Assembly: GCA_963823665.1 (NCBI GenBank)
Contig: CAWGMQ010000003.1
Span: 1-64,000, forward strand
Source: an uncultured Planctomycetota bacterium
Lineage (GTDB): Bacteria > Planctomycetota > Planctomycetia > Isosphaerales > Isosphaeraceae
Direction: 5' to 3'
DNA length: 64,000 nt
A program made the position numbers and the translations under genes. The notes beneath the pieces were generated by a model. The model made no database searches, was not told where the DNA came from, and worked only from the letters and a program-made list of their open reading frames with translations. Within the stretch, counting starts at the first letter, position 1. Every line of letters starts with the position of its first letter. Shown piece by piece: positions 4,522 to 26,010 of the stretch.

Positions 4522-4661
4522 GGGAAGCAAGACAGCCACCCATTCGTCGGGAATCAAACATGAAACCGTGCGGGCAAAGGCGCGGCCAGACACCCATTCT
4601 CTCCGAGTGATCCATCGATGGCTGCCTCGAACTCGCCAAAACGCTGGGTGTCTTGAATCCC
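4522..4661 (+). repeat. 140-bp dispersed element, full copy 1
   Basis: gggaagcaagacagccacc...acgctgggtgtcttgaatccc; aligns without gaps to copies at 20037, 21545 and 25871. Confidence 0.95.
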
Positions 4662-4867
4662 CTGGAAGACCAGGCACCCGTGTAGGATCTTTTCTGAGAA
4701 AGCCAGGAACTTGCATGATCACGCCTGCCAGAGCGGTGAGTTGAACTATAGTCGAAGCATAACACTCCGTCCTATGAAAGACCTACCAGCGGAATCATCG
4801 ACAAGGACTCAGCGCGACTCCTCGGAAACAGCGCAAATCTAGCGAACGGCTTTCGCTGAGTTCGGGT

Positions 4868-5155
4868 CTAATTCGTGCGCCAGCGCATCGCGGTGCGAGC
4901 ACGCAGCTCGGCCCACCTCGCGGGATTCCAATCCTCGTCGGGCTCGGCTTTCATCTTCAAGATCGATGCGATTTTCCAGGCGGCGAAGTTGCGCACCTCG
5001 ATCCTGGAGAAAGTGAACGCTGCAAACGGACCTTGGTACAGCGACGGGTTCGATTTTTCGTCGCGTACCTCGTCATCGTCGAGAAAATGAGAAATGATAT
5101 CGCGCCGCGACGTCCGTCGCACCACGGTCGAACGGGCGAACCGTCGCCGGTTCAT
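4868..5155 (-). CDS. Hypothetical protein or gene fragment between element copies 1 and 2
   Basis: C-terminal part (ISHFLDDDEVRDEKSNPSLYQGP..EVRNFAAWKIASIL) looks protein-like; 5' end unclear. Confidence 0.4.
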   Translation of the reverse strand: MNRRRFARSTVVRRTSRRDIISHFLDDDEVRDEKSNPSLYQGPFAAFTFSRIEVRNFAAWKIASILKMKAEPDEDWNPARWAELRARTAMRWRTN

Positions 5156-5178
5156 GGTCAGTTGCCCTCGCCGCGGAA

Positions 5179-5228
5179 CCATCAATGACTGCCTCAAACT
5201 CGCCAAAACGCTGGGTGTCTTGAAACCC
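5179..5228 (+). repeat. 140-bp element, right-end-only copy 2 (50 bp)
   Basis: ccatcaatgactgcctcaaactcgccaaaacgctgggtgtcttgaaaccc matches consensus positions 91-140. Confidence 0.9.
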
Positions 5229-5385
5229 CGGGTGATTCGGCCAGGTTGGTCCGCGGTGAGCCGGCGGGGACCGGGATTCCCATCACCCGGGGAATCGGAG
5301 GCGGACCCCGGAATTCATGAAACGACACCGATTTCCCCCTGAAATGCCACGAAATTCCCTCGACACCAATTTCCGCTCCCGGACT

Positions 5386-7569
5386 TTATTGACGGGCCAG
5401 CGCCTCGGCCACGGCCTTCTCGAGCGGCTCGCCGTGGAGGCCCCTGGCGATCAGGTTGCCGTCCGGGCCGATCAGGAAGGTCGGGTACGGCGGTCCGACG
5501 TTGTATTCGAGCACGATCGGATCGGCCCCGCGGTCTCGGAGGACGGTTTGCGGCCAGGTCATGTCGTTGGCTTTGATGATGCGCTCGACGTCCGCGGGGT
5601 CGCTGCCCAGATTAAGGCCGAGCATCGCGAACCGATCATCCCGGCCGGACCGGTCGTGGATCCTCTTGAGGGTCGGGAGTTCCTGGAGGCCGTGGACCGG
5701 GTAGCCGAAGTGGAGCAGGACGACCTTGCCGCGCAGGCCGGCGAGGCTCAGCTCGCGGCCGTCGAGCGTCTTGACCGCGAACGCCGGCGCCAGCTTGCCC
5801 ACCTCGGGCGGCTTCGGCTTCTTCCGGAGGACCAAGGTCAGCTCGGCGGAGCCGCCCTCCGGGAGGTTGATGCGGTGCAGCTCCCGGGGGACGTAGGCGC
5901 CTTCCCGGTCCCAGGCGGTGATCTCATACTCGTGGTCGGGCATAAGGCTCTGGCTGCGATACCGGCCGTCCGCCTGCTGGATGAAGCGGGAGCCATAGTC
6001 GCCGCCCCGCCGATTGAAGCCCGCGTTGACTTGGGGGTCGTGCAGGACAGTCCCGTCCTCGGTCCGGACGGTAGCGATCACGGTGGCCGCTCGGTAGCTG
6101 ACCACCGTGATCTTGCGATCCCGGTCGAGCGTCCCGAGCTGACCGCCGCCCCAGTATTTCAGCGGGCCGTTCTCCTCCAGGCGGGTCTTGTAAGCGACGG
6201 TCTCATCCGACGGGAAAGTGGATAGATTGGCATCTCGCAATCCTTCGGGAGCCCGGAAGGCGATCCGGCCGTTTTCGTCAGGGCGGTCCTGCATGGCCCA
6301 GTCAATCCGGTCGGCGGTGTCTTGCGGTTCGGGGTCGTTGATCTGCGACGCGAGACCGCCTCCGACGGTCGAGTGGGCTCCGAAGGGATTGGCCTGGCCC
6401 TGCTCGTTCGGGATGAGGCCCCAGACTTTGGCCGGGCTGCCGGCCGCGGGCTGGCCCCGTGAATCGACGAACCGAATTTCGACCTCCACGGTCGGAACCT
6501 CGCGAAGTACTAGCGGCGGGGGAAGGGCGCCCTCCTGGAGGTACACCCTCACCGGCTGGATGACCCGGATCGGCTTCGAAAGCGCCGAAAGATCCGGCGA
6601 TACTCCGCCTGATCCATCCTGCCCCTGACCGTAGACCAGGTAATTCGCAGGGCGGAGCGGACCCAGCGAGAAGGTTCCGTCGGCCTCGGTCGTGGCGAAG
6701 TGCTCGTCCCGGCCCCGGACGGCATAGGCCTTGATCGTCTGGCCGGCGATCGGCCGGCCGTCGAGGTCGAGCATCCGTCCCGAGAGCCGGACTCCGCGCG
6801 AGAGCACGATCCGGCCGAAGTCGGTCGGAGCCCAAACATCCGGATGCTCGGCGGACCGGTCCGTACCCCAGAAGTGCTGATAGGGTGCATACGGGAACCT
6901 CGCGCGGGCCGGTTGGGGGGGAGTGATGTAGAGGGCCACCGCCTGGGATTTCGGCATCCGCAGGCGGAACCGGCCTTCATCGTCCGTCCGACCTTCGTCG
7001 TCGTTCATGAATTGGCGCGAGCGATTGTTCCCCCAGGCCCAGTTCTCGAACCGATAGGGCACACCGGCGGCCGGCTTGCCCGCCGGCGTGACGATCTGGC
7101 CCGTGTACTCCGCCCCTTTCTCGAGGGTGATCGTCTCGAAGAAGGGCTTGTCGCCCTTGGCCGCGCCGCGGATCACCGCGGCGAGTGTGACACCGAGGGA
7201 TTTCCGGGGGATGTAGCCGGGATGCTTGATGCGGAGGGCCAGGGACAGCCTCCGCTCGGCGACCTGATCGGGCGGGAACTCCAGCCGGAACCGACCGTCG
7301 GCATCGGTCCGGATCATCGTCTCGCCCACCCAGGAGGGAATCGCCCCGGGCGGGACGCCGGGGATCGATCGCACCGCCACAATCGAGGCGCCATCCACGG
7401 GCTTGCTGGTCTCCACATCGACCACTCGGCCCGAAAACGCCGCGCCCCTCTCGGATCCGTCCTCGTCTCTCGCGACTGCGGCCGGCCCGACGATGAGCAG
7501 CAGGCCGGCCAGCACCCCACTTATCGCCAGCGGTCGAATCAGGCCTCGGGCGGACGGGGATCGGAACAT
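5386..7569 (-). CDS. Secreted carboxypeptidase-regulatory-like repeat protein with C-terminal redoxin-fold domain
   Basis: Signal peptide; repeated GRVVD..G.P..G / TDADGRFRL beta-sandwich motifs; C-terminal VGKLAPAFAVKTLDGRELSLAGLRGKVVLLHF; GGAGG RBS. Confidence 0.8.
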   Translation of the reverse strand: MFRSPSARGLIRPLAISGVLAGLLLIVGPAAVARDEDGSERGAAFSGRVVDVETSKPVDGASIVAVRSIPGVPPGAIPSWVGETMIRTDADGRFRLEFPPDQVAERRLSLALRIKHPGYIPRKSLGVTLAAVIRGAAKGDKPFFETITLEKGAEYTGQIVTPAGKPAAGVPYRFENWAWGNNRSRQFMNDDEGRTDDEGRFRLRMPKSQAVALYITPPQPARARFPYAPYQHFWGTDRSAEHPDVWAPTDFGRIVLSRGVRLSGRMLDLDGRPIAGQTIKAYAVRGRDEHFATTEADGTFSLGPLRPANYLVYGQGQDGSGGVSPDLSALSKPIRVIQPVRVYLQEGALPPPLVLREVPTVEVEIRFVDSRGQPAAGSPAKVWGLIPNEQGQANPFGAHSTVGGGLASQINDPEPQDTADRIDWAMQDRPDENGRIAFRAPEGLRDANLSTFPSDETVAYKTRLEENGPLKYWGGGQLGTLDRDRKITVVSYRAATVIATVRTEDGTVLHDPQVNAGFNRRGGDYGSRFIQQADGRYRSQSLMPDHEYEITAWDREGAYVPRELHRINLPEGGSAELTLVLRKKPKPPEVGKLAPAFAVKTLDGRELSLAGLRGKVVLLHFGYPVHGLQELPTLKRIHDRSGRDDRFAMLGLNLGSDPADVERIIKANDMTWPQTVLRDRGADPIVLEYNVGPPYPTFLIGPDGNLIARGLHGEPLEKAVAEALARQ

Positions 7570-8114
7570 AGTCGTGCCTCCCGGATGGTGATGCACCACT
7601 TGCCATGGAAGGGTAGATGAGCGGATGGTGCGTTCTCGAACGGGAATCGCCGGGCGATGACTTGTTCCCGCTCGGGGAGGCATCGCGCTCGCGTATGGAG
7701 GTCTACCTGGATGTTTCTACAGCACAATGACATACAGGCTTCGTGTATGCGGTCCGAGTGCTCCATGTGCGTGATTGTCGCTCCGATCCTACCTATTTTG
7801 AAAGCCCCTGCGTGACGATACTCGGTCATGGCTCGCTAGGCTGATCGTGTCTCCGGTACCGTAGGTCTTGGTTCCCAGCGGGCTTACCGAGTCGCTGTCC
7901 GAGCCCTCGTCGGAGATGACCTCGCTGCTCGTGGTGACCGTGGGCAATTGCGAGTTGGTGTTGTTCTGGATGACGCGTGGCCCGATGACAGCACCGGACC
8001 GGACATCTCTCTTTTTGTATCTAGTAAGATGGATTACGATATCGATCAAGCACTTAATGTGGCGTCGCAACGCGGGCGTTCAACTCGACCTGGATGGTGC
8101 GACTGGACAATCAG

Positions 8115-8747
8115 ATGGCAAGCTTTACTACCCTTTTCGTTGCTTCCGACGCCACGCTGACAGTGCTTTTCCCTGGTTGGCGAGCGGCGCGGGCTGCTCC
8201 GGCCAAAGTCGCGAGGAAGAACCCATTTACCGGCGATGTGACAAAAGTTGACGACTGGGACCCGGGTCCTCCCGCTGAATTACCCCTTGGCTTCACTCTC
8301 TTCGACAGTCGCCGCCGCGAGGTGATTGCGCCGGTTCTCCCGCCTGACGACGAATACCAGTCCTTGCTCGAGGATGGATCGCCAATTCTCCTTCGCACGG
8401 TTCCCCACAGCGCAATGAAAGGGATCAGCGAAGTCGAGCTGAGCGCGCTGGCCGAATCGATGGTGGGGCGATCGGAACCTCCGGCGCGCTTTGTGGATTG
8501 TCCGGAAGGAGAGGGGTTCATCGGGGCTCTGCCGACGCGAGCAATCGTACCGCTCGCGACGTTAGACGACGATCAAATGCAGGCGGGGCGTCCTCTGGAC
8601 AGCCGGCGAGGTCCACTTCCTTCCCACGCCGCTGCGGGGGACCTTCCCGCCGCTCCACTCGCTCAGCCGCCGCTTCGGTCATTGGTTATCGGGCTTCGAA
8701 CGAGTCTTCTCCCGCGAACCCGCCCGCGATCGGCAATGGTAAAGTAA
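8115..8747 (+). CDS. Hypothetical protein (3' end uncertain)
   Basis: MASFTTLFVASD..RKNPFTG.. has globular protein-like composition for ~155 aa. Confidence 0.55.
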   Translation: MASFTTLFVASDATLTVLFPGWRAARAAPAKVARKNPFTGDVTKVDDWDPGPPAELPLGFTLFDSRRREVIAPVLPPDDEYQSLLEDGSPILLRTVPHSAMKGISEVELSALAESMVGRSEPPARFVDCPEGEGFIGALPTRAIVPLATLDDDQMQAGRPLDSRRGPLPSHAAAGDLPAAPLAQPPLRSLVIGLRTSLLPRTRPRSAMVK

Positions 8748-8777
8748 CCCGCCCCGCGACCATTCACCAGCATTCGC

Positions 8778-10424
8778 TCACAGCCCGCTCAAGTCGAGGG
8801 CCGTCAGCTTGATACCCTTCTTGAGTCCCAGCGCCTTGACCACTTGCTCGTTCGCCGGAATCGTCAAGCTCTTCCGCGGCGAGACGCAAATGCCCGTCAG
8901 CACCTTGGGCGTTTCGTCCTCGGGACTGTTGGTTCCCAAGAGTGCGATTCCATTAAGAATCATCGGAGACGCATTTTCGATCCGGATCTGGTAGATGAGC
9001 TTCCCTTTCTCACGAGTCGTCGCTCCCTTGATCACCTGCGCCCGGACCAGGCGATTCAAGAGGCCCTCGGCCAACCCATCGGCGAACCGAGTCGCGTCGA
9101 ACTTCTCCTGACCATGCACTAGCGGAAGATTGAACTTGCCGAACTGTACCCAGTTCGACGCCGACGCGTCACTGCTGAGAACCTGTACCGACGCTTCTTC
9201 ACCCTTCAGCTTCACACGGCAACCAATCGCCGCACCCTCGGGACGCGCCAAAAGCTTATCCGATACCTGGGCTACCAAACCCAGAATGTACTTGCCTGCC
9301 AGCGCCTTGCTCAACTCGGCTGCGCTGCCTTGCGTCGCTTCATCTGAACCCACAACCTCGATGAACAGACGGCCGCTCTCACCCACCGCCAGCGTGTCCA
9401 GTCGGTCCACGAATTCCTTCGCAAGGGTCAACTCGTGACGATTCGACCAGCTTCGCGATAGCTGCGCGATCGTGTTCCAGTCCAGTCCCGCCGCAAGATT
9501 CCACATTACCAGTTGCGACAGGGACGTCGGCGCCTTGTCGGCCGCCAGTCGCTTGAGGGCTTTTTGAACCCGTATGTCGTCATTGACATCGGAAATATCT
9601 CCCACGATCTGAAGCGGTTCACCTTCTTGGGTAAGCCGCAGCCCCGTTTCCGGATCAGGCGTGGAAATACTCACCAAGCGCGTCGGAAGATGCCGCGTCT
9701 GACCGGGGGCCAGCACGGCTGATGGAAGCGAAGTGGGGGGCACCGATCGCATGCCACCGCCCATGCCTCCCATGCCGCCGCCCATGCCACCCATGCCGCC
9801 GCCCATGCCGCCCATGCCTCTCATCCCCATCATCCCGATCATGAGGCTGCGCATGTCCCAGCTATCGGGGTCGCCGCAGAAATACATGATAATTCGGGCT
9901 AACATCATCATGCCCATCGTGGCGGGCATGGTACCGGACGAGCGTCCCATACTGCCCATGCCTCGCATGCCACCCCCTCCACCGCCCATTCCACCGCCCA
10001 TGCCGCCGCCCATACCGCCTCCCATGCCGCCACCCATACCACCGCCCATACCACCGCCCATACCACCGCCCATACCACCGCCCATGCCTCCCATGCCGCC
10101 CATCTGTCCGGTGGCGCCTTGCGCGATGATACCCGGGGGCAAGACGACGCGTAGCTGGTGACGGGTGCGATTGGTGATCGAGACTGTCATGCGGCCATCG
10201 TCCCGACCTTTGGCCGAGACACTGATCTCACCCTTGCGAGCGGCCTCGAGCAAGTTAACCTCCGGAATATCCACATCCGCCGACTGTTGCAACGTCCGCG
10301 CCGAGGTCTTCGACGGGCGGCTCTTCGCGGGGGACTTGCCTGGAGGATCATCTGCGAAAGAGTGGTTGAGAGGTATGCAGCCTGCCAGGCTAATCGCGAA
10401 AAATGTGCGTACGTAATGATTCAT
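8778..10424 (-). CDS. Secreted hypothetical protein with (GGMG)n Gly/Met-rich tracts
   Basis: 548-aa ORF, signal-like N-terminus, two GGMG tracts. Confidence 0.8.
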   Translation of the reverse strand: MNHYVRTFFAISLAGCIPLNHSFADDPPGKSPAKSRPSKTSARTLQQSADVDIPEVNLLEAARKGEISVSAKGRDDGRMTVSITNRTRHQLRVVLPPGIIAQGATGQMGGMGGMGGGMGGGMGGGMGGGMGGGMGGGMGGGMGGGMGGGGGGMRGMGSMGRSSGTMPATMGMMMLARIIMYFCGDPDSWDMRSLMIGMMGMRGMGGMGGGMGGMGGGMGGMGGGMRSVPPTSLPSAVLAPGQTRHLPTRLVSISTPDPETGLRLTQEGEPLQIVGDISDVNDDIRVQKALKRLAADKAPTSLSQLVMWNLAAGLDWNTIAQLSRSWSNRHELTLAKEFVDRLDTLAVGESGRLFIEVVGSDEATQGSAAELSKALAGKYILGLVAQVSDKLLARPEGAAIGCRVKLKGEEASVQVLSSDASASNWVQFGKFNLPLVHGQEKFDATRFADGLAEGLLNRLVRAQVIKGATTREKGKLIYQIRIENASPMILNGIALLGTNSPEDETPKVLTGICVSPRKSLTIPANEQVVKALGLKKGIKLTALDLSGL

Positions 10425-10742
10425 CGAATCGTGCCTTTCTTTTGAAGAGCATGAACCAATCGAGCTGCGCGTGATTTACGCGCAAAAATATGTTAAGTCT
10501 TTTTTGACTACTTGGTTCCCCCGGAACCTGGTGCGTGATGCACCCCGGACGGCGGGAAGCGATCGCGGCCTCTGGTTGAGGGTGAGGAGCGATCGCGCGC
10601 GATGGATGATCATGTCGGCGAACGATCGCTCGCTGCCGATCGTGGTGGCGTCATGTCAATCAAGCGCCACGTGACCCGAGGGCGCTGTCGTACGGAAGCA
10701 ATCCTGCGAGCGCGCAACAGGGGCGCCGGAAGGACGAAGGGC

Positions 10743-11081
10743 TCAACACCGCAGCGGAGAAAGGCCAGGCGTGCGAGACGTGGTGGTGATCGCCGAGGTC
10801 GACGAACTCAGCGCGTGTGGGAAGACGGCAGGCTCGGAACTGACCTCGTCTTGGAGGTTGCCTGACTCTCCCACGACTATCTTCGGGCGGGCTTTCCAGG
10901 GAATGTAGTGAGTCAATTTCGACGTGCGGAGATGGCCGAACGCCGTTGATCGAACAATCGTGGGATCAAGGCGGAACGGAGCGACCTCGCGGTGAGCCGC
11001 CAGAGCGCTCGATGGCCCTGAGGGCGCAGTGAGCCAAGTCACTAAACTGAGCGCCAAAATCGCCGACCGAACGGCAAACAT
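10743..11081 (-). CDS. Small secreted hypothetical protein
   Basis: Signal-peptide-like N-terminus MFAVRSAILALSLVTWL..ALA. Confidence 0.45.
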   Translation of the reverse strand: MFAVRSAILALSLVTWLTAPSGPSSALAAHREVAPFRLDPTIVRSTAFGHLRTSKLTHYIPWKARPKIVVGESGNLQDEVSSEPAVFPHALSSSTSAITTTSRTPGLSPLRC

Positions 11082-11206
11082 CCCACAGCCCCTGCTGAAA
11101 ACAAACGGCGGTTTCCGACCTGATGGAAGCTTGGTTACACAAATCTAATAAAAGAGTATATCTCGCGCCGCGTATCGCAGCTAGTAGGCATTCCAAATAT
11201 CTTGAT

Positions 11207-11247
11207 GCAGCCTCAAACTCGCCAAAACGCTGGGTGTCTTGAATCCC
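11207..11247 (+). repeat. 140-bp element, right-end-only copy 3 (41 bp)
   Basis: gcagcctcaaactcgccaaaacgctgggtgtcttgaatccc. Confidence 0.9.
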
Positions 11248-11254
11248 ACATACT

Positions 11255-11650
11255 TCAGAGGTCACGGTGACGACGCCAGCGTAGAAGTCGCTCGCAAGCG
11301 GCCTTCGTGGCGTAGAGGGCGGCCAGAAAGAGGACACCGTCGAAGGCCAGGACAAATGGTTCAATGCCGCTGGGATGGAATCGCAGCCCGTGAATGAGGC
11401 AGAAAAAGCATGGGGAGAGGGGCCACCCGCGAAAGAACATAGCCCTCGTGACTGGGTCCAAACCGGGTAGGCTTTCGCCCGCGAAATTCTGTTGCAATGC
11501 GGTCGGCCGCAGATTGGCCCAGATCAAGACGCCGGTCAGCAGAGTCAGGAGGATGGCTGTGGCGGGATGGACGGGATGAGGCCGTCGCGCGGCGCGGACG
11601 AGCGCTAAGACTGCTACCAACCCGATACAGAGGTCGATGAGTGAGATCAT
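11255..11650 (-). CDS. Small membrane protein
   Basis: Three hydrophobic segments and an RGWP motif; stop lies 8 bp from element copy 3. Confidence 0.6.
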   Translation of the reverse strand: MISLIDLCIGLVAVLALVRAARRPHPVHPATAILLTLLTGVLIWANLRPTALQQNFAGESLPGLDPVTRAMFFRGWPLSPCFFCLIHGLRFHPSGIEPFVLAFDGVLFLAALYATKAACERLLRWRRHRDL

Positions 11651-11756
11651 TACCGGGTCGGCATTGGCAGGAGCCGCTCGTAAAACATCTGTCACGCTTT
11701 CCGGGGAAGCTCTATGACCTCCCATCGATGATACCGCGCAAGCGATCGTCTTCATG

Positions 11757-14700
11757 TTAGCTTAGAACGTCCACGGCGGCGCAGGCGGGCCAGCCCCAAC
11801 ACGAACCGGCCGGCGGCTGCGCAGCGCGGGCCGCCAGCATCAGTACGCCGGCGACATACGCTCCCCAGATGAGCGCCTGGTGCCATCCAGACCAATTGTA
11901 ATGCTCGATCGCAGGCTTTGCGTGGCTGACCGCCCAGAGCGTGAGCGTCAAGAGCAGGACGGCCGGGAGCACGGCGCCCGCGACAAGCACACCGATTTTC
12001 TTCCACCGCCGGTGGACGAGGGCCAAGACGAGCGCAACCATGTACGCGACGATCGGCAGGCCGCTCATGGAAAGTAAGGCCACGTAGCGGACAAAACCCC
12101 ACCAAGGTGTCGGCGACGGTTGCAGATTATTGGGAATGAGCGATATCAACGTCGAAGAGCCGGCCATGCTCACAGCGACCACCACCGGCAGCGCGAGGAG
12201 GAGCCGCATGCTCCAAAAACGCCGGCGCGTCGCCAACCACAGTAGCATCACTGGAATGCAGACGTTGACCACTGTCGCACCCATTGCCGCCTGGATCAGC
12301 GGATACTCATAGATCGGGTTTGGTAGAACCCAGAAAAGCCGCCGCTCCCGGCGCGGGTCGTCGTCGAGCGTCGGCGGCCGGGCCGTGACACCGGGCGCCA
12401 CGCGATAATGGCCGTCGGCCGAGGTCGGCATGGCCACACGGCAAATCGCCGTGCCATCGGGGCCAGCCAGCGCGCGGGCCAGGTTCGAGCCGTCGCTTGT
12501 TTTCAAGATTGCGCGGGCCGGGCCGAGCGTCCACATTGGGCGCCCGGTTGCACCGTCGATGCCAAGCGATGGGTTGATGACCACGGTCGAACGTCCCTGC
12601 GCCGGGCAATAGCTCGCGAACCGCCTCACGGGTCGGCAGCGACCACAGCTCGCTCAAGTCGCGCCGGCAAGCGCGCAAAGAGCCGCCGTCGTGAAAGAGC
12701 AGCTCGTCGCGGCCATCGCCGTCGAGGTCTGCGACCCAGAGCCCGGGCAGAGAGCCTTTTTCTAAATCGCGGCCGCTCCGTTCGTGGCCCTGCGCATCGA
12801 GGATCGCCACGCGCCGCCGCCCCGGCGCGACGCCGAAATTGATGCACACGTCCCTGCGCCCAGTGCCATCGAAATTGCCGAGGTGAAGCCGTGGAACGTT
12901 GTCGGGCTCATCTCGGGCGGTGCCGGCCCGCCACGACCAGAGCGGCTTCCCCGACTGGCCATCAAGCGCCGTGACATCGGTCACGCCGATTTCGCCTTCC
13001 CAGGGATTCTCGCTCACGACAACGTCCGGGCATCCGTTCCCATCGACATCGCCGACGGCGAAAGCCGGCGACGCCACGGCATTCGGATCGAACGCATGAA
13101 CCCACCGGGTCTGTCCGTCCGTGAACGACAAGACCCGCAGCTCAGGCGAGCTCGTCCCGAAAACGGCCTTAGCGCGGAGCAGCACGACGATTTCGCGATC
13201 GCCGCTACCGTCGAGGTCCGCAATCTCGTGAATGAAGCCAACGTGCTTATTCGTGCCCCCTTGGTAGTCGGCAAGGAGGACGTCCCAAACCACGTGGCCG
13301 TCGCGTCCGGAAATCCGGGCCAATCGGTGTTGACTATCGACGGGCGTCGGCCCCGGCCCCTTAGGAAGGACAAGCGAGAGGACGTACATCAGGAGTACAT
13401 CGGGCGAGCCGCCGGAATCGCACACGCGGGCGTCGATTCCTTCGATGTTCCGCCCGACAAGCTTCCGCGCGCCCACCGTCGGCGAAATCGCTGTCGACCA
13501 GAGCCGCTTGCCCGTGCGGCCCGAGAGTGCATCCAGCGGCAGCGTGTCGTCGGTCTTTCCGGGCGGCGAGTCCACCCACTTCCTGACGACGAAATCCGCG
13601 GCGCCATCACCGTCCAGGTCGCGTCCAGGAAGGCCCAAAGCCATGAAGCGATAGGCCGATGCCCGATAACCCGGCTTTTCCAAGGCGTCGAGCTGCGTCT
13701 GCCAGAGCAGGCGGCCATCTCGGCCGGAACGGGCGAGAGCTGTCTGGCGATCCATCGGCCGACGAGGCCAGATCGGAGGGGCCTCGAAGTCATCGCTCAG
13801 GAGGTCGCTCATTCCATCGCCGTCAAAATCCCCCGCTGCGTGCAATCCATCGAGGGCACGCCAGGCTTCGGCCGGCTCCGCACGGATCGCCACCAGCTTG
13901 CCGTCGACCGCACCCCATAAATCGGCGAGGCCGTCGCCAGTCAGGTCGGCGACCTTGGGCGAAGTCAGGCCAGGAACGGTGTGCTCTTCGATGCCTGTGG
14001 CAGCCCCGAGCAGGTGGACGACCGGCGGGTCCGGAGGGTAGAAGCGGTACCTCGGGTCTTCTCCGGACTCCTGTTTTCCACCGATCGGCAGCGCAAGCAT
14101 CGGCCAGCCGTCCGATCCGAGGCCCCACCAGAATGCCGAATTGATCGGCGTGGTGTCGGCATTGGTGAGCTCGGTGCGCCAGTGCCAGAGTCTGTGCCCG
14201 CCCTTACCGGAAACCGCGTCGACGTAGATTCGATTCGGCTCCGGCAACTGACCTGGGCGAGCCTGATACGCGCGCTCACCGCTATACCGCGAGACGACTA
14301 CGACGTCGCGGGTCCCGTCGGCATCGAGATCGGGCGCGGTCAGCAGGTGAATCAAGCTACTCGAAGGACCCGACATGTCGTGCCAGAGTGGACAGTCCCA
14401 CCGGGGCTCGCCCGTCGCGCCATCGAGCATGCGGATACCACGGTAGCGCGGCCAACCAGCCGGTCCAAGCGTATCGGAGTTGTGAGCGTAGTCGGGAACC
14501 ACGATCTCGGCGCGGCCATCATTGTCGAGGTCGGCCGCCAGAGGCCAGTCTCTCACTGCCACGGCGGGCTCGGGCTCGTACCAGGCATCCAGCTTCCTGG
14601 CCCACAGACGTTTTCCCCGCGCCGTCGAGAACGCCGCCAGCGTCGGAACGGTCAAGGGCCGATCAAAGGCGCCCTTGGAGCGCTCGAGTGCAAGAACTTC

Positions 14701-17020: not shown

Positions 17021-17131
17021 CTGCGGCTATTTCCTTGACGGGTTTCACCGTAGCTGTCAAAAGACATCCCCCCATCGATCATAGGGCCGGAAACGGCGTC
17101 GATGTCACGCGAAATCTCCGCGGACTGTCTG

Positions 17132-17176
17132 CATGGCTGCCTCAAACTCGGCAAAACGATGGGTGTATTGAATCCC
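17132..17176 (+). repeat. 140-bp element, right-end copy 4 (45 bp; possible degenerate left part back to ~17058)
   Basis: catggctgcctcaaactcggcaaaacgatgggtgtattgaatccc; upstream aagacatccccc weakly resembles the left arm. Confidence 0.85.
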
Positions 17177-18609: not shown

Positions 18610-19632
18610 TCAATTGCCCTGTTGAATCCAGGCGGTGATCTTGTCGGCGTCCTTGCGGATGTTTGTCATTAAATCGGCCACGTCATTCGCAAGACTATCG
18701 ATCTTGGAAAGATCGTTCGACCGGCCGTTGGTGAAGTACTGGGAAACCGCTTGAATGACGTTGTCACTTGCACCCACGACAGTCTCGATGTTAGCTACCG
18801 CCGTGTAGCTGTTCGACTTGGCGTACTTCGTGATTTTCTGACCCATCTCCACGAAGTCGCCGCGAGTTTCGTTAATGCCGCTCTGGTTGGAGGTTGGATT
18901 GGCGCTAAACTGCCAATAATCGCTCAATTCCGCATCTTTTGTTACAGCCCGATCTGAATCGGGGCCTTTATAGACTCCGGGACCCTGTTTCTTCGACTTG
19001 TTCGAGAACTGGCCCAGGTAATACTTGGTGAGCGTCACCTGGCCGGTATGAAACGCTCCGAGCATCGAAACCTGGAACAAAGCGTCGTCCCAACCATGGT
19101 GAGGTTGCTCCGGCACCATCGCCCGATACCCTTCCGCCGTATAGATCGCGACAAAATTGGTAGAGACTCTCTGCGTGGGATTCGCTAACACCTCGATGTT
19201 CGACTCCGTGTTTTCCGCGTTGCACGCGCCAAGGATCCGGATCAAGAGCTTGTAGAACTTGGCCACTTCCTCGACATCATCCACTTTCAGGGCTTGCGCC
19301 AAATGATCGAGGTACGTCAGGTCTGACCAATCGCCGACTTCACCTCTTGTCCATCCGTAGCTTCGGCCCCCCACGGATTCTGTCGGGTAATTCACATGAA
19401 TGTTGAAGTTGAACTGGCTGAGCTTCACGGTCACGCCGTGGCCGGCCTTGAGCTCCGACTGGTTGGTCTCGGGACCCTTTGCCTGGGGAGCAAACTTCGC
19501 AATGGTTGGCCCAAGTTGCGAGTGCATTAGCTCGTAGAAGGAGCGCTGGCCTGCGACCGTTTTCAAGTCAATCGTGCGATCCGCCGGCTGGGGAAGCTTC
19601 GGTAGAGTGAAGTCGGTACCCGTCGCAATCAT
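18610..19632 (-). CDS. Hypothetical protein (~340 aa), lower GC
   Basis: Long uninterrupted ORF; AGAGAGG RBS before MIATGTDF; no family recognised. Confidence 0.75.
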   Translation of the reverse strand: MIATGTDFTLPKLPQPADRTIDLKTVAGQRSFYELMHSQLGPTIAKFAPQAKGPETNQSELKAGHGVTVKLSQFNFNIHVNYPTESVGGRSYGWTRGEVGDWSDLTYLDHLAQALKVDDVEEVAKFYKLLIRILGACNAENTESNIEVLANPTQRVSTNFVAIYTAEGYRAMVPEQPHHGWDDALFQVSMLGAFHTGQVTLTKYYLGQFSNKSKKQGPGVYKGPDSDRAVTKDAELSDYWQFSANPTSNQSGINETRGDFVEMGQKITKYAKSNSYTAVANIETVVGASDNVIQAVSQYFTNGRSNDLSKIDSLANDVADLMTNIRKDADKITAWIQQGN

Positions 19633-20036
19633 GATGTGTACCTCTCTGTAAGTAAAACTGACGCGTCGGGCCAAGGAAGAGCTGCGCAACTTCAATGCTT
19701 GCACCTGCGGGTCGGCCGCCTTGGCCATCAGGATGTCGTTGAGCTCCTCGTCGTCGAAGCCGAACATATCCCTCAGTGATTTCCTGGAATGCACCCGCAA
19801 AGTGGATCGCCGCGCAACCAAGTGCCAGTCCTTCGGCGTGCGGTTTGTTGGCGAATTCGTCCCGGCTGGCGGCAAAAAGCGACATCCTACACCCTGTTCT
19901 GGGTGAGAACCAGAGTTTCTGTCTTTCTGCCATTGGGCTGCTCTCTGCGGGAAAGACCCGCCATAAGTCCTGAGGGACCAAGGATAATCCGGCCAGATCT
20001 GAAGACGTGAAATCAGACGGTAGATCGAGCGGTCGA

Positions 20037-20176
20037 GGGAAGCAAGACACCCACCCTTTCGTCGGAAATCAAAGATAAAACCGTGCGGGGAAAGGTGCAG
20101 CCAGACACACATTCTCTCCTAGTGATCCATCCATGGCTGCCTCAAACTCGCCAAAACGCTGGGTGTCTTGAAACCC
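20037..20176 (+). repeat. 140-bp element, full copy 5
   Basis: gggaagcaagacacccaccc...gctgggtgtcttgaaaccc. Confidence 0.95.
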
Positions 20177-20371
20177 AAAACGTGAGAATATGGGATCCAT
20201 CCGGAGAACGGAGAAGGCCTGAGCCGCACAGGGAGATTTTTGCGACCCGGAATGCACTGGCCGTCTTGACAGCCGTTTTACACACCTGGGAATTTATACT
20301 GTGACTGGTGGCACCGTGCGGACCGTTCATGTTCGGCGCCGCGGACACGTCCTCCAAAAAGGCTCAATACG

Positions 20372-21385
20372 ATGAAGTCATCCTGGAACGTGGGCTACGG
20401 CCTGTCCGCGTTAGGGTCGCCGCACGCACTGAAGTTGGCCGGACTTGGCCTGGCCCTGGCCTGCGTTTACCTGCGAAACCCAGCATCAACGTGCGGTGCA
20501 CAGGTGGCCCCCACCGGCCGTCCCGCCGTCGACGCCGGAGCGCTGGACGCGAAGATCATGTCACTCCTCAAGACGCATGGAGACGGCATCAAAGCGAGCG
20601 TCTGGGTCGGGGGTCCGACCGGGACAGCGTGGTACACGTGGCAACCAGACGAAATCCGCCCGACCGCCAGCGCGGTCAAAACCGCGTTCCTCGTCGAGTT
20701 CTTCGCCCGTTACGCGGGCGCGCTGGAGCAAACGCCGCCCCGGCTTGAGGAGGTGCTCCGGGAGGGAAGCCCGGCCTTCCTCCATTACACGCCCGCCGAG
20801 CGGAACGAGGTTCGTCGGGCGCTTTCGGGTGTGTCCGTCCGTAGGCTGGGCCGGGTGATGATGGGCTCAGACCCTGCGAGCGACGTTGTTTACAATGCCG
20901 CGGCCAACGTCGTGACCGCCCTCCTCGGAGGCCCCGAGGAGATCACGAAGGCGATTCGCGCCCGGGACCGTTCGTTCGCCTCGGTCGCCGTGCGCCGCTA
21001 TATGCTCGCGCCCCGGCACGTCACTGGTGACAACGAAGCCACGGCCAGCGCGCTCGCCGCAGTGCTCCAGCGCCTAGCCTCCCGGCGGATCCCAGGCATG
21101 GTCGACGGCAGCATCACAGAAGTCAGGAACGCCCTGCTCGTTACGGACCTTCATGGGGGCCGCTACCATTTCAAGCACGGCGACCTGAACTCCGACCCGC
21201 TGGCCCGCATCCGTAGCGGCTGGCTGGACCTGGCCGGCGGCCGCACCGTCGTCTGCGTCGTCATGGTCACACAACCGAACCCCGGTTCCCGGCCCCGCGA
21301 GGAGGCTGGCGAGCGTCTGGATAGGACCGCCCAGCGCATCACCGGTAGCGTCCTCGACACTGTGCTGACCGGGAACAAACCCTGA
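20372..21385 (+). CDS. Serine hydrolase, class A beta-lactamase-like fold
   Basis: RPTASAVKTAFL (SxxK), DNEATA, FKHGD (KTG-like). Confidence 0.75.
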   Translation: MKSSWNVGYGLSALGSPHALKLAGLGLALACVYLRNPASTCGAQVAPTGRPAVDAGALDAKIMSLLKTHGDGIKASVWVGGPTGTAWYTWQPDEIRPTASAVKTAFLVEFFARYAGALEQTPPRLEEVLREGSPAFLHYTPAERNEVRRALSGVSVRRLGRVMMGSDPASDVVYNAAANVVTALLGGPEEITKAIRARDRSFASVAVRRYMLAPRHVTGDNEATASALAAVLQRLASRRIPGMVDGSITEVRNALLVTDLHGGRYHFKHGDLNSDPLARIRSGWLDLAGGRTVVCVVMVTQPNPGSRPREEAGERLDRTAQRITGSVLDTVLTGNKP

Positions 21386-21498
21386 CCGAGCCAATCTGGC
21401 GGAGAATTTTTTCCAGCGAGGCCTGAATCGCCGACCGACCAGGTCGAGCGACCCGGAGGCTACGCTGTTGACCTCGCCATCCCTGCCTCCAGTCGCGT

Positions 21499-21684
21499 GG
21501 GAAGCAAGGAAGCAAGACACCCACCCTTTCGTCGGGGGAAGCAAGGGAAGCAAGACACCCACCCTTTCGTCGGGAATCAATGATGAAACCGTGCGGGGAA
21601 GGGCGCGGCTAGACGCCCATGCTCTCTGAGTGATCCATCCATGGCTGCCTCAAACTTGCCAAAACGCTGGGTGTCTTGAATCCC
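21499..21684 (+). repeat. 140-bp element, full copy 6 (21545-21684) preceded by a reiterated left end
   Basis: gggaagcaa + ggaagcaagacacccaccctttcgtcgg + gggaagcaa, then the full copy. Confidence 0.95.
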
Positions 21685-22006
21685 CGCCACGAGTTACGTC
21701 CTACGGGGTATCTCGTGTCCTGATCACGAGCAGGGTGGGGATAGCTTGAGCTTGGGGAGGATTCGCGGGCAAGGTCGTTGAGGCTTGGCACCGCATGATG
21801 TTCTGGGATCGACGGGGATCTGGGCGAGATGATCGGTCGCGCTTCAATCGTTAAACTCGCGCGAGATCGGGAAGGTCGGGCGGCACCCGGGGGGTGAGGC
21901 GAACAGAACTGGACGACTGCCGGTTAAGTTTGAAAAGGATCGAGGATTTTGCCGATCATATTAGTTGATTTGTTGGTGCGGTCGATGATGGCCTCGAACC
22001 GGCAAG

Positions 22007-25000
22007 GTGGCGATGATGCTCGCTCGCGTTTCGGTTTTGAGCGTTGTGGCGGCGACGGCGGTCTTGCTAGCGGGCGGGACGTCTGCCTGCGCGCAGGATA
22101 GGTCGATCTTCCGGTGGAAGGCGGCGCCGGAGGAGCCGAACACGATGGTACAGATCGCGCGGTCGATTGACGCGATCGAGGAGAAGATTCGAGACGACGG
22201 GATCGTGGTTCTGCAGCATCCGGACGTTTGGGGCCAAGCCAGGATGACGAGGTACCGGGTCGACTTCGAGAAGTACATGCTCGAGAACCTGAAGTTTGAG
22301 GAAACGCTCTCGGCGGTGATCTCACGAGCGGACCGGGCGGCGCTCGAGAGCCAGACGGCGATCGGGGTCTCGTTGACGCCCGGTGGGAAGGGTGGCGGCG
22401 TTCAGGTAACGAACCACTCGTCAGACGATTCGGGCAAGGGCCAGGCGGCACTGGTCAACGCGGCGCAGCAGATGATCGACAAGGCGAAGGACAAGGACGG
22501 GTTGAACGAGTTCGAGAAGACCGAGACGTTCAAGCTGTTAAAGGATGCTTCTTCGATGTTCAAGACGAAGGACGGGCCGGCAATCGGGCTGGAGCCGACC
22601 GTTCTACTGGAAGAGAAGAAGACATTCTATGATCGATTGAACCAATATCGGCGCCAGAATTTCGGCGATGATAACGCCGACGCGGCAGGCTACAACCTCT
22701 ATCAGTTCGGCATGCCGGTTTCGATCTTGCCCGGCGAGAAGACGCACAAGGATCACGGGGCGCAGATCACGATCACGGTGCGGCATGATTTCGGGCCTGA
22801 GTTCCTGGCGTCGACGTTTCGGAATTTTGTGATCAATGACGTCGTCGATCGGCTGGCGCCGCTTGTTTACGAGATGATTCGGGATAAGGCGTTTATCGAG
22901 CGATACCGTGACGAGTTTAGCGCGGAAGGAAGGAAACAGCGCCAGGAGCTTGATTCCATTAACTTGCAGATCAGTGAGTTGCGGCAGAAGGAGAAAGAGG
23001 CTATCGACGCGCTTCAGGGGAAGCACGACGCCGCCTTAAGGGAGCAGCCCACGGTTGAAGTTTCGCAAAATGTGCTACGCGACGCTCTACCGGGCAATTT
23101 CGCTGAGAGTCGAGATGCTGGCACGTTGGTGAAGAAATTCGGCACGCCGGCGGGAAAGGCTGCATTTGAAGTTTCGGCTGTGACTCCATGGCGGCCGGAC
23201 GTGAAATTCAATCCGCCACCTGCCCCGAGCGGCGTGCCGTCCGTGGGATCGCGCGAATGGTCACGTTACGTCGATGAGGTGAGGATCTATGAGGCCGCCA
23301 GCAAACTCACCTCGCAGCTCAAGCCTGGATTCAAAGACTTTCTGACGGCGGTTGCAAACACCGATGGCGAGCGGAAGACATGGGAGGAGGCAGAATTAGT
23401 TCTGTCCAACACGCGCGATAAGATCCGCGCCCTGCGGGCGCAGTTGGACGAGCTGGTATTCAAATTGAATTCAAGGAGCTTCGCAGATTCTCGGGTTCGA
23501 GATCAAGAGTACCCGATTGCTCCAAGCGATCTTGTGGACGTTCTGCTGAAGGAAAACGTCAGGGCGCTGGCGCTGGCATGTTTTGAGGCGCGGCAGACGA
23601 AGTTGGTACGAGCGGCAGATGTTCGAGCGTTTCTCAATCATGAGCTATCTGCCGCGTTCGACCTGTTGTCCGGTAGCTGCCGAGACATGGCGCCGGTGCT
23701 GAGCGACACCGAATTCATTAGCTTGGTGAATGAGACGATTCAGGCGCGCGACTACGAGTCGTTGCAGACTCTTTATGAGCGGCGGATCCGGTCACTGCTC
23801 CCGGATTTTGACAGGCGATCTGCAAAGCGCGACGCGCTTCGAGTGACGCTGGCTGGGAGGAAAAATCAGGGACGGGATGGCCAACTTGACCCACTCCCGG
23901 AGGAAAGACCCGATGCGGGCCAGCAGGCGAGAACCGAGCGAGAACTTGACGACAGACTGATGAGCCTCCGGGTCGAGCGGCCCGTCGGCGCGCTTTGCTG
24001 GGCGATTGTTGTCGATTCCGCGCTGTTGAATTGCCGGCTGAGGCAGGAGCTGCGGGAATTCAACGGGGTGAGTGGATTCCGCCTGATCTGCGATCCCGAG
24101 AGGCTGTTCTTTCATCTGCCGATGCCGCGGGTGCCGGGCGGGGACCAGAGGTATGAAACAGCGCAGGCGGTCTTCGAGCAATACGTGCGCGCGCGCTGGC
24201 CGATCATCTGTTTTTCGCTGGACCCGATCGCCGACCAGCAGAATATCGGTGATGCATTCAGCCGGACAAGGGACTTGCAGGTTGCGCTGGCGCTGGCGTT
24301 TTCGGCGGGAAGGATCGGGATCAATCAACTGCTTCGCTACAGGCGGCAGCTCGATTACGAAGCGGCGACAATCGCGCTGAATCGAACAATCACCGCGTAT
24401 GTGTTCGGGCACGAGACGTTCGGCTGGCGATTCGCACCCAGGTATCAGACGCCGCCGCAGGAGGCGACGAATGTCCATGTGATTGCCAATCAGATCTTGC
24501 GCGGAGGACCGGGTCGCAATTATCAGATGAAGAACAGCAAGCTCGAGGCGGGAGAGCGCGAACTATCGGCGGTGGTGATCATGCCGTCGATTCTTCAACG
24601 AGTACGGATGGAGATTACGGGGAACTGGTGGCGGCTGACGGATCCAGATGAGACGACGCTGAATACAGCGCACATGATCGAACAAGGGCGGAGGGTGGTC
24701 GAGCTGCGGCAGGCACTGGCGAGTGCGTGCGACAACGGGCGGTACAGGGAGGACGATCTTGCGCGGATGGCGGTGAAGATCGATCAGCTCGAAGCGATGC
24801 TGCCGATGCAGACGAAGACCGTCGCCGTGCCGTACGGAAACACACTCGGGGGATTTGACATTTTCAAGAAAGGATCGTCGGCGCTGGCGCCTGTCGTGGT
24901 CGGGCACCAGGGTGTTGACGAACTGACTTCAGAGAGCTGCCGGAATGCTTTTCTGCTCTTCGGCAGGAACTTCAGCATTCAGGACACGACCATCGTCGCC

Positions 25001-25792
25001 GGCGGCCAGCGGGTGGACAAAGACGACGTCGACATTTTGAGTCGGGAAGTGCTGCGGGTGCGGCTGCCGAAGAATCTCGAGATCACGACGACCACCGACG
25101 GGCAGAAGTATGTGGAGCTGCACCTGGGCACACCGAATGGCGTGTCGAACCGAATGCTGCTGCCGTTCTCCGACTCACCGGTGACGACGACGACGATCAC
25201 GAATTTGGTGAAGGAGGTGAGCAGCCGGGACGCGGCCGTGAACTGGACGCGATCGGTCGAGACGAAGATGGTCACGGGGCCGAGGCCGAAGTGTGATCTG
25301 GATAAGGACGCCACGACGAAGACGGCGGGGGGTGACGACGACGCGGGTCACGCTCCGCATGGCGGTGGCCAGCAGCAGGGCGGAGCCGGCGGTCAGCATC
25401 AAGGCGGCGACGACGGAGGTGACGGCCAGCAGAATGGCGGCCAGGGGAAAGCCGCCGCCAAGAAGGGTGTGGACGCACCAAAGAAGGATGCCGCCAAAAA
25501 AGCCGCGCCGAAGGCCGACGGCGACCATGGAAACGCGGAGAAGGCGGAGCCCAAAGGTGCGAGCGCTACGCCGTCGCGGCCAGCGTTTCGTGAGGATGAC
25601 ATCGAGAGGATCGCGGAAGCGACGCGGCGACGGCCGTTCGCCCAGACGATCATTGTCCCCCCGCCGAAGGAAGAGTCGAAACAGGCCGGGCATCGGCGCG
25701 CTGATTCACAGGTGAAGCAGTCGTCGACGATGAATGCGCCACCCAAGCGCCGGACAATCTTGGATCGGTTGATGCATCGCGAAGGGGACTAG
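22007..25792 (+). CDS. Large secreted hypothetical protein (1261 aa)
   Basis: Signal peptide, coiled-coil segments, Ig-like segment (GRNFSIQDTTIVAGG), low-complexity tail. Confidence 0.85.
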   Translation: MAMMLARVSVLSVVAATAVLLAGGTSACAQDRSIFRWKAAPEEPNTMVQIARSIDAIEEKIRDDGIVVLQHPDVWGQARMTRYRVDFEKYMLENLKFEETLSAVISRADRAALESQTAIGVSLTPGGKGGGVQVTNHSSDDSGKGQAALVNAAQQMIDKAKDKDGLNEFEKTETFKLLKDASSMFKTKDGPAIGLEPTVLLEEKKTFYDRLNQYRRQNFGDDNADAAGYNLYQFGMPVSILPGEKTHKDHGAQITITVRHDFGPEFLASTFRNFVINDVVDRLAPLVYEMIRDKAFIERYRDEFSAEGRKQRQELDSINLQISELRQKEKEAIDALQGKHDAALREQPTVEVSQNVLRDALPGNFAESRDAGTLVKKFGTPAGKAAFEVSAVTPWRPDVKFNPPPAPSGVPSVGSREWSRYVDEVRIYEAASKLTSQLKPGFKDFLTAVANTDGERKTWEEAELVLSNTRDKIRALRAQLDELVFKLNSRSFADSRVRDQEYPIAPSDLVDVLLKENVRALALACFEARQTKLVRAADVRAFLNHELSAAFDLLSGSCRDMAPVLSDTEFISLVNETIQARDYESLQTLYERRIRSLLPDFDRRSAKRDALRVTLAGRKNQGRDGQLDPLPEERPDAGQQARTERELDDRLMSLRVERPVGALCWAIVVDSALLNCRLRQELREFNGVSGFRLICDPERLFFHLPMPRVPGGDQRYETAQAVFEQYVRARWPIICFSLDPIADQQNIGDAFSRTRDLQVALALAFSAGRIGINQLLRYRRQLDYEAATIALNRTITAYVFGHETFGWRFAPRYQTPPQEATNVHVIANQILRGGPGRNYQMKNSKLEAGERELSAVVIMPSILQRVRMEITGNWWRLTDPDETTLNTAHMIEQGRRVVELRQALASACDNGRYREDDLARMAVKIDQLEAMLPMQTKTVAVPYGNTLGGFDIFKKGSSALAPVVVGHQGVDELTSESCRNAFLLFGRNFSIQDTTIVAGGQRVDKDDVDILSREVLRVRLPKNLEITTTTDGQKYVELHLGTPNGVSNRMLLPFSDSPVTTTTITNLVKEVSSRDAAVNWTRSVETKMVTGPRPKCDLDKDATTKTAGGDDDAGHAPHGGGQQQGGAGGQHQGGDDGGDGQQNGGQGKAAAKKGVDAPKKDAAKKAAPKADGDHGNAEKAEPKGASATPSRPAFREDDIERIAEATRRRPFAQTIIVPPPKEESKQAGHRRADSQVKQSSTMNAPPKRRTILDRLMHREGD

Positions 25793-25870
25793 AAGTAAAA
25801 CGGGTTGTGTGTTGTCAGTTGTTAGTTGATCGTTGTCCGAGCGGGTGATTCGGGGTTTGGCGGGTTCGAG

Positions 25871-26010
25871 GGGAAGCAAGACACCCACCTTTTCGTCGGG
25901 AATCAAAGATGAAACCGTGCGGGGAAGGGCGCGGCCGGACACCCAATTTCTCCGAGTGATCCATCCATGGCTGCCTCAAACTCGCTAAAATGCTGGGGGT
26001 CTCGAAGCCA
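25871..26010 (+). repeat. 140-bp element, full copy 7 (degenerate right arm)
   Basis: gggaagcaagacacccacc...gctgggggtctcgaagcca. Confidence 0.95.

What the first reader, a model, noticed from the sequence alone, without database searches (positions are those of the whole stretch)
4522..26010. Co-oriented 140-bp element punctuating an accessory gene region: candidate integron-like cassette array with a non-attC site
Seen: seven intergenic copies (full at 4522, 20037, 21545, 25871; right-end-only at 5179, 11207, 17132), all on the same strand and within 21.5 kb. I saw none in the housekeeping 30-64 kb. Full copies are exactly 140 bp with substitutions only and no target-site duplication. They separate blocks of ~0.5, 6.0, 5.9, 2.9, 1.3 and 4.2 kb carrying unrelated cargo (redoxin, kinase, membrane proteins, serine hydrolase, large secreted protein). 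Two blocks hold a single gene, and two stop codons lie 8 and 24 bp from the element end. Known: integron attC arrays are co-oriented and cargo-delimiting, whereas MITEs usually insert in either orientation with TSDs; seven co-oriented copies by chance is 1/64. The element lacks the attC RYYYAAC/GTTRRRY ends, and cargo genes lie on both strands. Inference: it is a recombination or insertion site of a gene-capture system whose enzyme (tyrosine recombinase or HUH/RAYT-type) is encoded elsewhere.
Basis: partly seen in the sequence, partly recalled or inferred. Interest (0 to 1): 0.88.

Follow-up and report, generated by a model that had tools for sequence, protein, structure and literature searches.

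The report
Miniature transposons at gene-shuffling seams
The seven repeats are real: they are worn, non-coding miniature transposons with the same end sequence as a little-studied single-strand-DNA transposon in this bacterium, and they cluster head-to-tail at the joints between reshuffled pieces of accessory DNA, but they are not integron recombination sites.

Summary
Observation confirmed; integron reading not supported. The same ends bound sister miniature families and ~1.8-kb elements encoding a 409-aa HUH/Y1 protein that fits TnpA-Y1 subclass 2.3 (best fold match TnpA-REP). There are 21 matches genome-wide, no attC cores, no target-site duplication, and no integron integrase over cut-off. 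Clustering and co-orientation are real and local: 12 of 12 neighbour pairs within 20 kb share a strand; a sister family gives 23 of 25, falling to 4 of 10 beyond 300 kb. Homology to element-free copies elsewhere often stops exactly at an element tip, no empty site was found, ends are stuttered, and three cargo-plus-one-element units recur at other loci. But the blocks are mosaics, one tip cuts a gene, and copies are old (about 89% alike). Best reading: TIRtron-type miniature elements whose enzyme joins tips to new DNA, building direct-repeat arrays much as IS26 does (inferred, untested). The scan noted this enzyme family, its stuttered ends and a similar array before in other genomes.

The parts
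4522..4661 (+). Full 140-bp miniature element (family A) with imperfect 17-bp terminal inverted repeats
4662..5175 (.). 514-bp block; short ORF 4868-5206(-) that overlaps the half copy, no Pfam match
5176..5228 (+). Right-half copy (element positions 88-140)
5229..11206 (.). 5978-bp mosaic block: 765-aa carboxypeptidase-regulatory/AhpC-TSA protein (5386-7683, -) and 548-aa protein (8778-10424, -); 8717-11206 matches G001:C4:470247-467763 and the match ends exactly at the half copy
11207..11247 (+). Right-half copy (positions 100-140) at a seam: left flank found in G001, right flank at G000:C10:1647378 and in G008, both without the element
11248..17131 (.). 5884-bp mosaic block: 166-aa ORF (stop 11255), FG-GAP repeat protein, Ser/Thr kinase (15554-17020, -); 11759-17131 matches G001:C4:2074972-2080323, where no element follows
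17132..17176 (+). Right-half copy (positions 96-140) joining two stretches that lie 1.6 Mb apart in G001; spanned by a public contig (16486-17237)
17177..20036 (.). 2860-bp block: 221-aa ORF (stop 17200), TPR-bearing ORF; only 17177-17345 matches G001:C4:475370-475200, starting exactly at the tip
20037..20176 (+). Full copy; the DNA outside its right tip matches G000:C4:1025745 from the first base, with no element there
20177..21498 (.). 1322-bp block with a serine-hydrolase gene (20372-21385, +; Pfam Beta-lactamase2); a twin lacking the gene, with the same block-to-left-end junction, lies at G000:C4:1025745-1026165
21499..21544 (+). Stutter: partial direct copies of the left tip outside the full copy
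21545..21684 (+). Full copy (used as query)
21685..25870 (.). 4186-bp block with one 1261-aa ORF (22007-25792, +), no Pfam match; homolog at G001:C5:506009-509787, away from the orthologous locus
25871..26010 (+). Full copy with a decayed right end

Best explanation
The 140-bp unit is a non-autonomous miniature element (MITE/REPIN-like doublet of inverted ends) of a TIR-bounded HUH/Y1 transposon lineage, TnpA-Y1 subclass 2.3, present in many intact and decayed copies in this genome. Shown: shared ends, the enzyme's family and fold, no target duplication, local co-orientation, tip-exact seams, stuttered tips. Inferred: the enzyme nicks one strand at an element tip and joins it to other DNA, usually nearby or next to a resident end. 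Short-range events reiterate the tip (stutters); longer ones delete, duplicate or import flanking DNA, leaving directly repeated elements between unrelated blocks. Recombination between direct repeats and later deletions (half copies) would add to the mosaic. The array is an old by-product of this activity in a variable region, not an ordered whole-gene cassette system.
For: The left end matches the 3' end of the autonomous element at 20 of 21 bases. A degenerate end motif has 157 matches in G000 against 1 for the reversed control. The motif bounds 0.8-1.9-kb elements that are the Y1 gene or deletion derivatives of it. P0001 has H76-L-H78 and Y189-xxx-NP, invariant in 33 aligned sequences, a weak NCBIfam RAYT match (E 2.9e-8, under cut-off), and TnpA-REP 4ER8 as best fold match (E 3.4e-4). 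The motif (1 mismatch allowed) lies on both sides of the gene in 11 of 15 loci of the closest clade, from 8 genomes, and in 1 of 22 more distant loci. No duplication of 2 bp or more in 17 of 17 A copies. Same-strand neighbours within 20 kb: A 12 of 12 (0.43 pairs expected), B 23 of 25; B at 20-300 kb 7 of 11 and beyond 300 kb 4 of 10. Homology to element-free DNA starts at or within 3 bases of a tip or half-copy edge at window 11206, 11247, 17131, 17176 and 20176, at C5:100690 and C6:383182, and at two B tips in G001. Cargo plus one element recurs at another locus with the left junction kept in 3 cases. A 103-bp tandem duplication ends exactly at a right tip.
Against: No autonomous element with family-A ends was found, and similarity to the P0001 element stops after about 21 bases, so the enzyme assignment rests on the shared terminal motif. 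Pfam Y1_Tnp does not hit P0001. Eleven Y1_Tnp matches, several of them shorter RAYT-like proteins, are also in the genome. Copies within a cluster are no more alike than between clusters (89.1% vs 88.7%, permutation p 0.28), which gives no support for recent local duplication. Of 39 outer ends tested, 25 had no homolog among the loci held. About half of the window's homology breakpoints (8717, 11739, 11759, 17345, 21993, 25779) have no element. G001 has a half copy and a full copy in opposite orientation 4 kb apart. No joint at an element end among the 9 joints listed from public contigs.
Confidence: 0.72

Rival explanations
1. Dedicated capture system: a unit of cargo plus one element is cut out and stacked next to a resident element in fixed orientation by the Y1 enzyme, so the element serves as a targeted integration site (IS26 translocatable-unit logic with HUH chemistry).
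For: Strict local co-orientation; three cargo-plus-element units shared between loci with the left junction kept; in both the window and the C4 twin the shared block begins downstream of a right tip; no empty site in the loci held.
Against: Left tips also form new junctions (C6:383182), so polarity rests on 3 cases. Blocks are mosaics and a tip cuts a gene. Adjacent deletion from a tip gives the same seams. No circles seen. Copies are old and decaying.
Confidence: 0.2
2. Passive model: elements inserted singly with a strand bias (replication fork or transcription), survived only in variable regions, and later homologous recombination and deletions made the seams.
For: Star-like divergence of copies; clusters sit in regions full of other mobile DNA; some long-range sameness (7 of 7 B copies on C10 on one strand). 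IS200/IS605 prefer the lagging-strand template (PMC3333891, passages).
Against: Orientation decays to chance beyond 300 kb and flips within 65 kb on C3. Simple insertion predicts contiguous flanks in relatives, and none was found. Tip-anchored stutters occur in several genomes. GC skew was too noisy to test the fork model.
Confidence: 0.2
3. Integron-like array: the 140-bp unit is a non-canonical attC-type site for a tyrosine recombinase.
For: Co-orientation, intergenic position, two stops close to right tips, one near-single-gene block; 4 of 6 single-strand folds have z below -2, with the two ends paired.
Against: No attC cores; 0 of 18 matches pass the integron-integrase cut-off, and none lies within 300 kb of a family-A cluster; the same ends bound transposase genes; breakpoints fall at the outer tips and at three different internal positions, not at one crossover point.
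Confidence: 0.04

Closest known systems
TIRtrons/TIRYTs and their TIR repeat families (Di Nocera et al. 2013, PMC3733652; passages read)
   Same: HUH/Y1 RAYT-like gene flanked by terminal inverted repeats, with moderately abundant non-coding TIR repeats as dimers or clusters.
   Different: The end motif here has the core AGACACCCA rather than GGGGWSAS. Quentin et al. place 20 of 26 TIRYTs in subclass 2.1 and none in 2.3. kb-scale co-oriented arrays are not mentioned in the passages read.
TnpA-Y1 subclass 2.3 (Quentin et al. 2018, 10.1101/279083 = PMC6006769; parts 2, 4, 5 of 7 and passages read)
   Same: Long protein, HuH-to-Y distance about 110 (113 here), Y---NP motif, many divergent copies per genome.
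   Different: The paper found no REP-like sequences beside 2.3 genes and names Chromatiales and Alteromonadales as main hosts; here the genes have inverted ends and miniature derivatives. P0001 (409 aa) is longer than the 325-aa median.
REPINs/BIMEs with RAYT/TnpA-REP (PMC3116915, PMC3333891, PMC8266576; passages read)
   Same: Non-autonomous doublet of inverted ends about 100-170 bp long; HUH enzyme in trans; local tandem amplification by nick-and-transfer proposed for BIMEs; best fold match is TnpA-REP (4ER8).
   Different: No GTAG foot or short REP hairpin at the ends; tens of copies, not hundreds; strongly clustered, whereas SBW25 REPINs are near random; the enzyme gene is multicopy and itself bounded like an IS.
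IS26 translocatable units and arrays (Harmer, Moran, Hall 2014, PMC4196232; abstract and outline read)
   Same: Directly oriented copies between unique segments, no target duplication per copy, a unit of cargo plus one copy.
   Different: IS26 is an autonomous DDE element with demonstrated targeting; here the copies are non-coding, the candidate enzyme is HUH/Y1, and targeting is untested.
Integron attC cassette arrays (recalled; no paper read)
   Same: Co-oriented intergenic sites between unrelated accessory genes.
   Different: No attC cores, no integron integrase, multi-gene mosaic blocks on both strands, breakpoints at element tips.

Membership tests
Integron attC array | RYYYAAC / GTTRRRY core sites at the ends | tested here: not met
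   0 matches on either strand of the 4 full window copies
Integron attC array | IntI integrase in the genome or beside the array | tested here: not met
   TIGR02249: 18 matches, 0 over cut-off, none near a cluster; genome 92% complete
Integron attC array | Whole-gene cassettes, one fixed crossover point | tested here: not met
   Mosaic blocks, a gene cut at a tip, half copies breaking at positions 88, 96 and 100
Integron attC array | IntegronFinder call | not testable with these tools
   Program not available
MITE / TIR repeat of a TIRtron | Short non-coding unit with terminal inverted repeats, multicopy | tested here: met
   17-bp imperfect inverted ends; 21 matches in G000
MITE / TIR repeat of a TIRtron | Ends shared with a tyrosine-transposase gene unit in the same genome | tested here: met
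   20 of 21 terminal bases; motif on both sides of the gene in 11 of 15 closest loci
MITE / TIR repeat of a TIRtron | Direct internal-deletion derivative of an autonomous parent | tested here: inconclusive
   No parent with family-A subterminal sequence in the loci held, or in two collection scans by exact pattern
MITE / TIR repeat of a TIRtron | GGGGWSAS terminal consensus of most published TIRYT ends | tested here: not met
   Ends read GGGAAGCA and GGGATTCA; the paper says other TIRs are unrelated to that consensus
DDE-type MITE | Target-site duplication | tested here: not met
   0 of 17 full A copies with 2 bp or more
TnpA-Y1 subclass 2.3 (candidate enzyme P0001) | HuH and Y---NP motifs about 110 residues apart | tested here: met
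   H76/H78 and Y189, invariant in 33 sequences (criteria)
TnpA-Y1 subclass 2.3 (candidate enzyme P0001) | HUH transposase fold with insertions and a long C-terminal tail | tested here: met
   Model pLDDT 67.7; best match 4ER8, E 3.4e-4, then IS200/IS605 transposases at E 0.1-0.6
TnpA-Y1 subclass 2.3 (candidate enzyme P0001) | Placement with the authors' own subclass profile or tree | not testable with these tools
   Profiles not held; assignment is by the described features
REPIN/BIME (GTAG type) | GT[AG]G tetranucleotide at the foot of a short REP hairpin | tested here: not met
   Not present at either end in the alignment and folds
IS26-like translocatable unit | Targeted, orientation-specific insertion next to a resident copy | not testable with these tools
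   Needs a mobility assay; only the genomic pattern was examined
Known IS in ISfinder | Match of the ends to a catalogued IS | not testable with these tools
   ISfinder not available

The most novel reading that the evidence does not exclude
Subclass-2.3 HUH/Y1 transposases use 17-bp inverted ends and stack units of cargo plus one miniature element beside resident copies in fixed orientation. That would be a single-strand, integrase-free gene-shuffling platform, the HUH counterpart of IS26 arrays, building accessory islands in very large planctomycete genomes.
Probability: 0.25. Interest if true: 0.75.

Novelty: new variant of a known kind. Interest (0 to 1): 0.42.

Why it matters
Subclass 2.3 is a widespread group of HUH enzymes with no described DNA substrate in the classification I read. 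This genome offers candidate substrates (a 17-bp end, several miniature families, intact parents) and footprints of the reaction (tip stutters, tip-exact seams, local co-orientation), so the chemistry can be tested directly. If the stacking model holds, non-coding 140-bp elements would be a route for moving accessory genes without an integrase. If not, this is still a clear case of miniature elements marking rearrangement hot spots.

Tried and rejected
The genome is too large for a whole-genome script, so counts come from capped searches: the DNA search scored 40 of 43 candidates, and the broad end-motif search listed 100 of 157 places. GC skew of 45 loci and the window was too noisy to define replichores. 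Empty-site search: all 30 flagged rows were stutter or nested-end artefacts, and I discarded them; flank searches against the genus gave no contiguous site. The automated junction tally was contaminated by stutters and intron ends; I replaced it with a hand-listed set of 42 ends. Collection scans for a family-A parent: 5 loci in named genomes, 2 of them real copies; 0 and 24 loci in metagenomes, none of the 24 matching beyond the 18-21-base pattern or carrying the Y1 gene. Family A was found in 3 of 61 related genomes, with only marginal 22-34-base hits in 2 of 5 more. Public runs: no RNA holder listed; contigs of 4 runs showed no joint at an element end, but cover was thin and the best run may be the source sample. 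Sequence searches of solved structures gave nothing significant. Short ORFs overlapping the element (for example 18610-20112) were not treated as element genes.

Full report
OBSERVATION. Block sizes and the two near-tip stops check out. Rfam gives no match on the element.

WIDER FAMILY. The window is G000:C3:1-64000 of a 16.5-Mb, 92% complete assembly. The element has 21 matches there (40 of 43 candidates scored), in groups on C3, C4, C5, C8 and C9 and singly on C6. C9 is a 97% duplicate of window 1-7544 and was left out of counts. It was found in 3 of 61 related genomes, G000 included. The two named records with a true copy are titled Isosphaeraceae and Planctomycetota. A degenerate form of the end has 157 matches against 1 for the reversed control. 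Reading these shows sister miniature families (B about 150 bp, 55 matches; C about 165 bp; others) and larger units of 0.8-1.9 kb.

CANDIDATE ENZYME. The larger units are one gene or deletion derivatives of it. The intact copy encodes P0001, 409 aa. G000 has 67 matches to it, fragments and distant RAYT-like genes included, three with a near-complete open frame; the nearest intact one is about 420 kb from the array. P0001 has H76-L-H78 and Y189-xxx-NP, invariant in 33 sequences. Pfam gives nothing, NCBIfam a sub-cut-off RAYT match, and the predicted fold matches TnpA-REP best (4ER8, E 3.4e-4). These features fit TnpA-Y1 subclass 2.3 as described by Quentin et al.. The end motif, with 1 mismatch allowed, lies on both sides of the gene in 11 of 15 loci of the closest clade (8 genomes) and in 1 of 22 more distant loci (one duplicate locus dropped). 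Family A matches the parent's 3' end at 20 of 21 bases and not beyond, so its direct parent was not found and the link to this enzyme is inferred from the shared end.

CO-ORIENTATION. Of 19 A copies, 12 of 14 same-contig neighbour pairs lie within 20 kb (0.43 expected if uniform), and all 12 share a strand. For family B, 23 of 25 pairs within 20 kb share a strand, 7 of 11 at 20-300 kb, and 4 of 10 beyond. The effect is local and family-wide. Exceptions exist: two close B pairs, and an opposed half and full A copy 4 kb apart in G001. GC skew could not test a fork bias, and all 7 B copies on C10 share a strand, so some long-range bias is not excluded.

SEAMS. Against the congener G001 the housekeeping part (30-42 kb) is collinear, and the orthologous variable region holds one A copy among different cargo. 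Homology stops at element edges to the base: 11206|11207, 17131|17132, 17176|17177 and 20176|20177, within 3 bases at 11247, and likewise at C5:100690, C6:383182 and two B tips. The half copy at 17132 joins stretches 1.6 Mb apart in G001, and a public contig spans it (possibly the source sample). No copy had both flanks contiguous elsewhere, but 25 of 39 outer ends had no homolog among the loci held. There is no target duplication in 17 of 17 full copies. Three units of cargo plus one element recur at a second locus with the left junction kept and a different right flank. A 103-bp tandem duplication ends at a right tip, and tip stutters occur in several genomes. Against an orderly cassette system: six breakpoints in the window lie away from elements (8717, 11739, 11759, 17345, 21993, 25779), a tip cuts an ORF in the C5 cluster, and copies diverge in a star, 89.1% within and 88.7% between clusters (p 0.28), which marks an old family and gives no sign of recent local copying.

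MECHANISM. Most likely (0.72), an HUH/Y1 enzyme acting in trans nicks one strand at a tip and joins it to other DNA. Short-range events give stutters; longer ones give adjacent deletions, duplications or imports, and leave direct repeats between unrelated blocks. Nick-and-transfer amplification is proposed for BIMEs (PMC3333891, passages), and arrays of directly oriented copies are documented for IS26 (PMC4196232, abstract). The substrate link, the strand cut and any targeting are inferred, not shown. A dedicated stacking system (0.2) and a passive biased-insertion model (0.2) remain open, and both overlap with the best reading on the element's identity. An integron (0.04) fails on attC cores and integrase (0 of 18 over cut-off).

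RELATION TO WHAT IS KNOWN. It works like a TIRtron repeat or REPIN (PMC3733652, passages; PMC3116915, passages; PMC8266576, passages). It lacks the GTAG foot and the GGGGWSAS consensus. Quentin et al. report no REP-like flanks for subclass 2.3. Searches for TIRYT/TIRtron returned only these two papers, and three further searches listed no description of such arrays; most subscription papers, ISfinder and the two papers' figures and supplements were not seen. Earlier notes of this scan report inverted ends on subclass-2.3 genes (e1-1159272), stuttered ends (e1-1498706) and a similar co-oriented array (e1-5116062) in other genomes. I found them after forming my reading; they are unchecked notes, not independent support.

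SIDE FINDING. An ORF-less group II intron of about 730 bp (Rfam D1-D4 matches) sits inside the end motif: 17 of 18 distinct 5' junctions follow GGGTGTCT, one of them an A right end. Homing into IS inverted repeats is published for RmInt2 (PMC4615759, passages). No intron match lies in the window.

VERDICT. A real feature, misread as an integron. New variant of a known kind; interest 0.42. The stacking reading (probability 0.25) would deserve about 0.75.

Noticed in passing
L055:11327-12060, L043:6352-7085, L021:1542 and others (G000 C3, C6, C7, C8, C11): ORF-less group II intron of about 730 bp, over a dozen copies at 92-100% identity, inserted at one position inside the shared terminal repeat (17 of 18 junctions after GGGTGTCT); it carries a complementary AGACAC, a putative EBS1.
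   Followed up: partly
L051:9153-12317 (G000:C8:517153-520315) and six other loci: A 2.5-kb group II intron with an RT/maturase/HNH ORF, five copies at 100% identity, nested in a second ORF-less intron; the composite abuts a family-A copy at element position 14 and a family-B right end at C6:916235.
   Followed up: partly
L108:2920-3203 (G001:C14), L140, L142, L081:3980-4255: Extreme tip stutter: up to 14 partial direct copies of the end beside a Y1 gene.
   Followed up: partly
G000:C9:1-7555 vs window 1-7544: 97% identical duplicate ending at the C9 contig end; strain variant or real duplication not resolved.
   Followed up: no
window 29619-29745, 31573-31727, 36673-36718: Short palindromic REP-like repeats, multicopy in the genome; the last is Rfam Acido-Lenti-1.
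   Followed up: no
window 62292-63944: Tandem array of about 12 units with a 123-bp period, probably a repeat-protein gene.
   Followed up: no
window 12307-12629 and 27434-28181: The FG-GAP gene and the serine beta-lactamase-family gene each appear split over two frames; decay or assembly error not resolved.
   Followed up: no
L062-L072: Eleven Y1_Tnp matches in G000, several short RAYT-like genes lying next to, or broken by, the end-bearing elements.
   Followed up: partly
L042:10270 and 15334 (G008:C29): Left-tip fragments of 16 and 35 bases, each preceded by the same ~300-bp repeat, with right halves 4-9 kb upstream.
   Followed up: no
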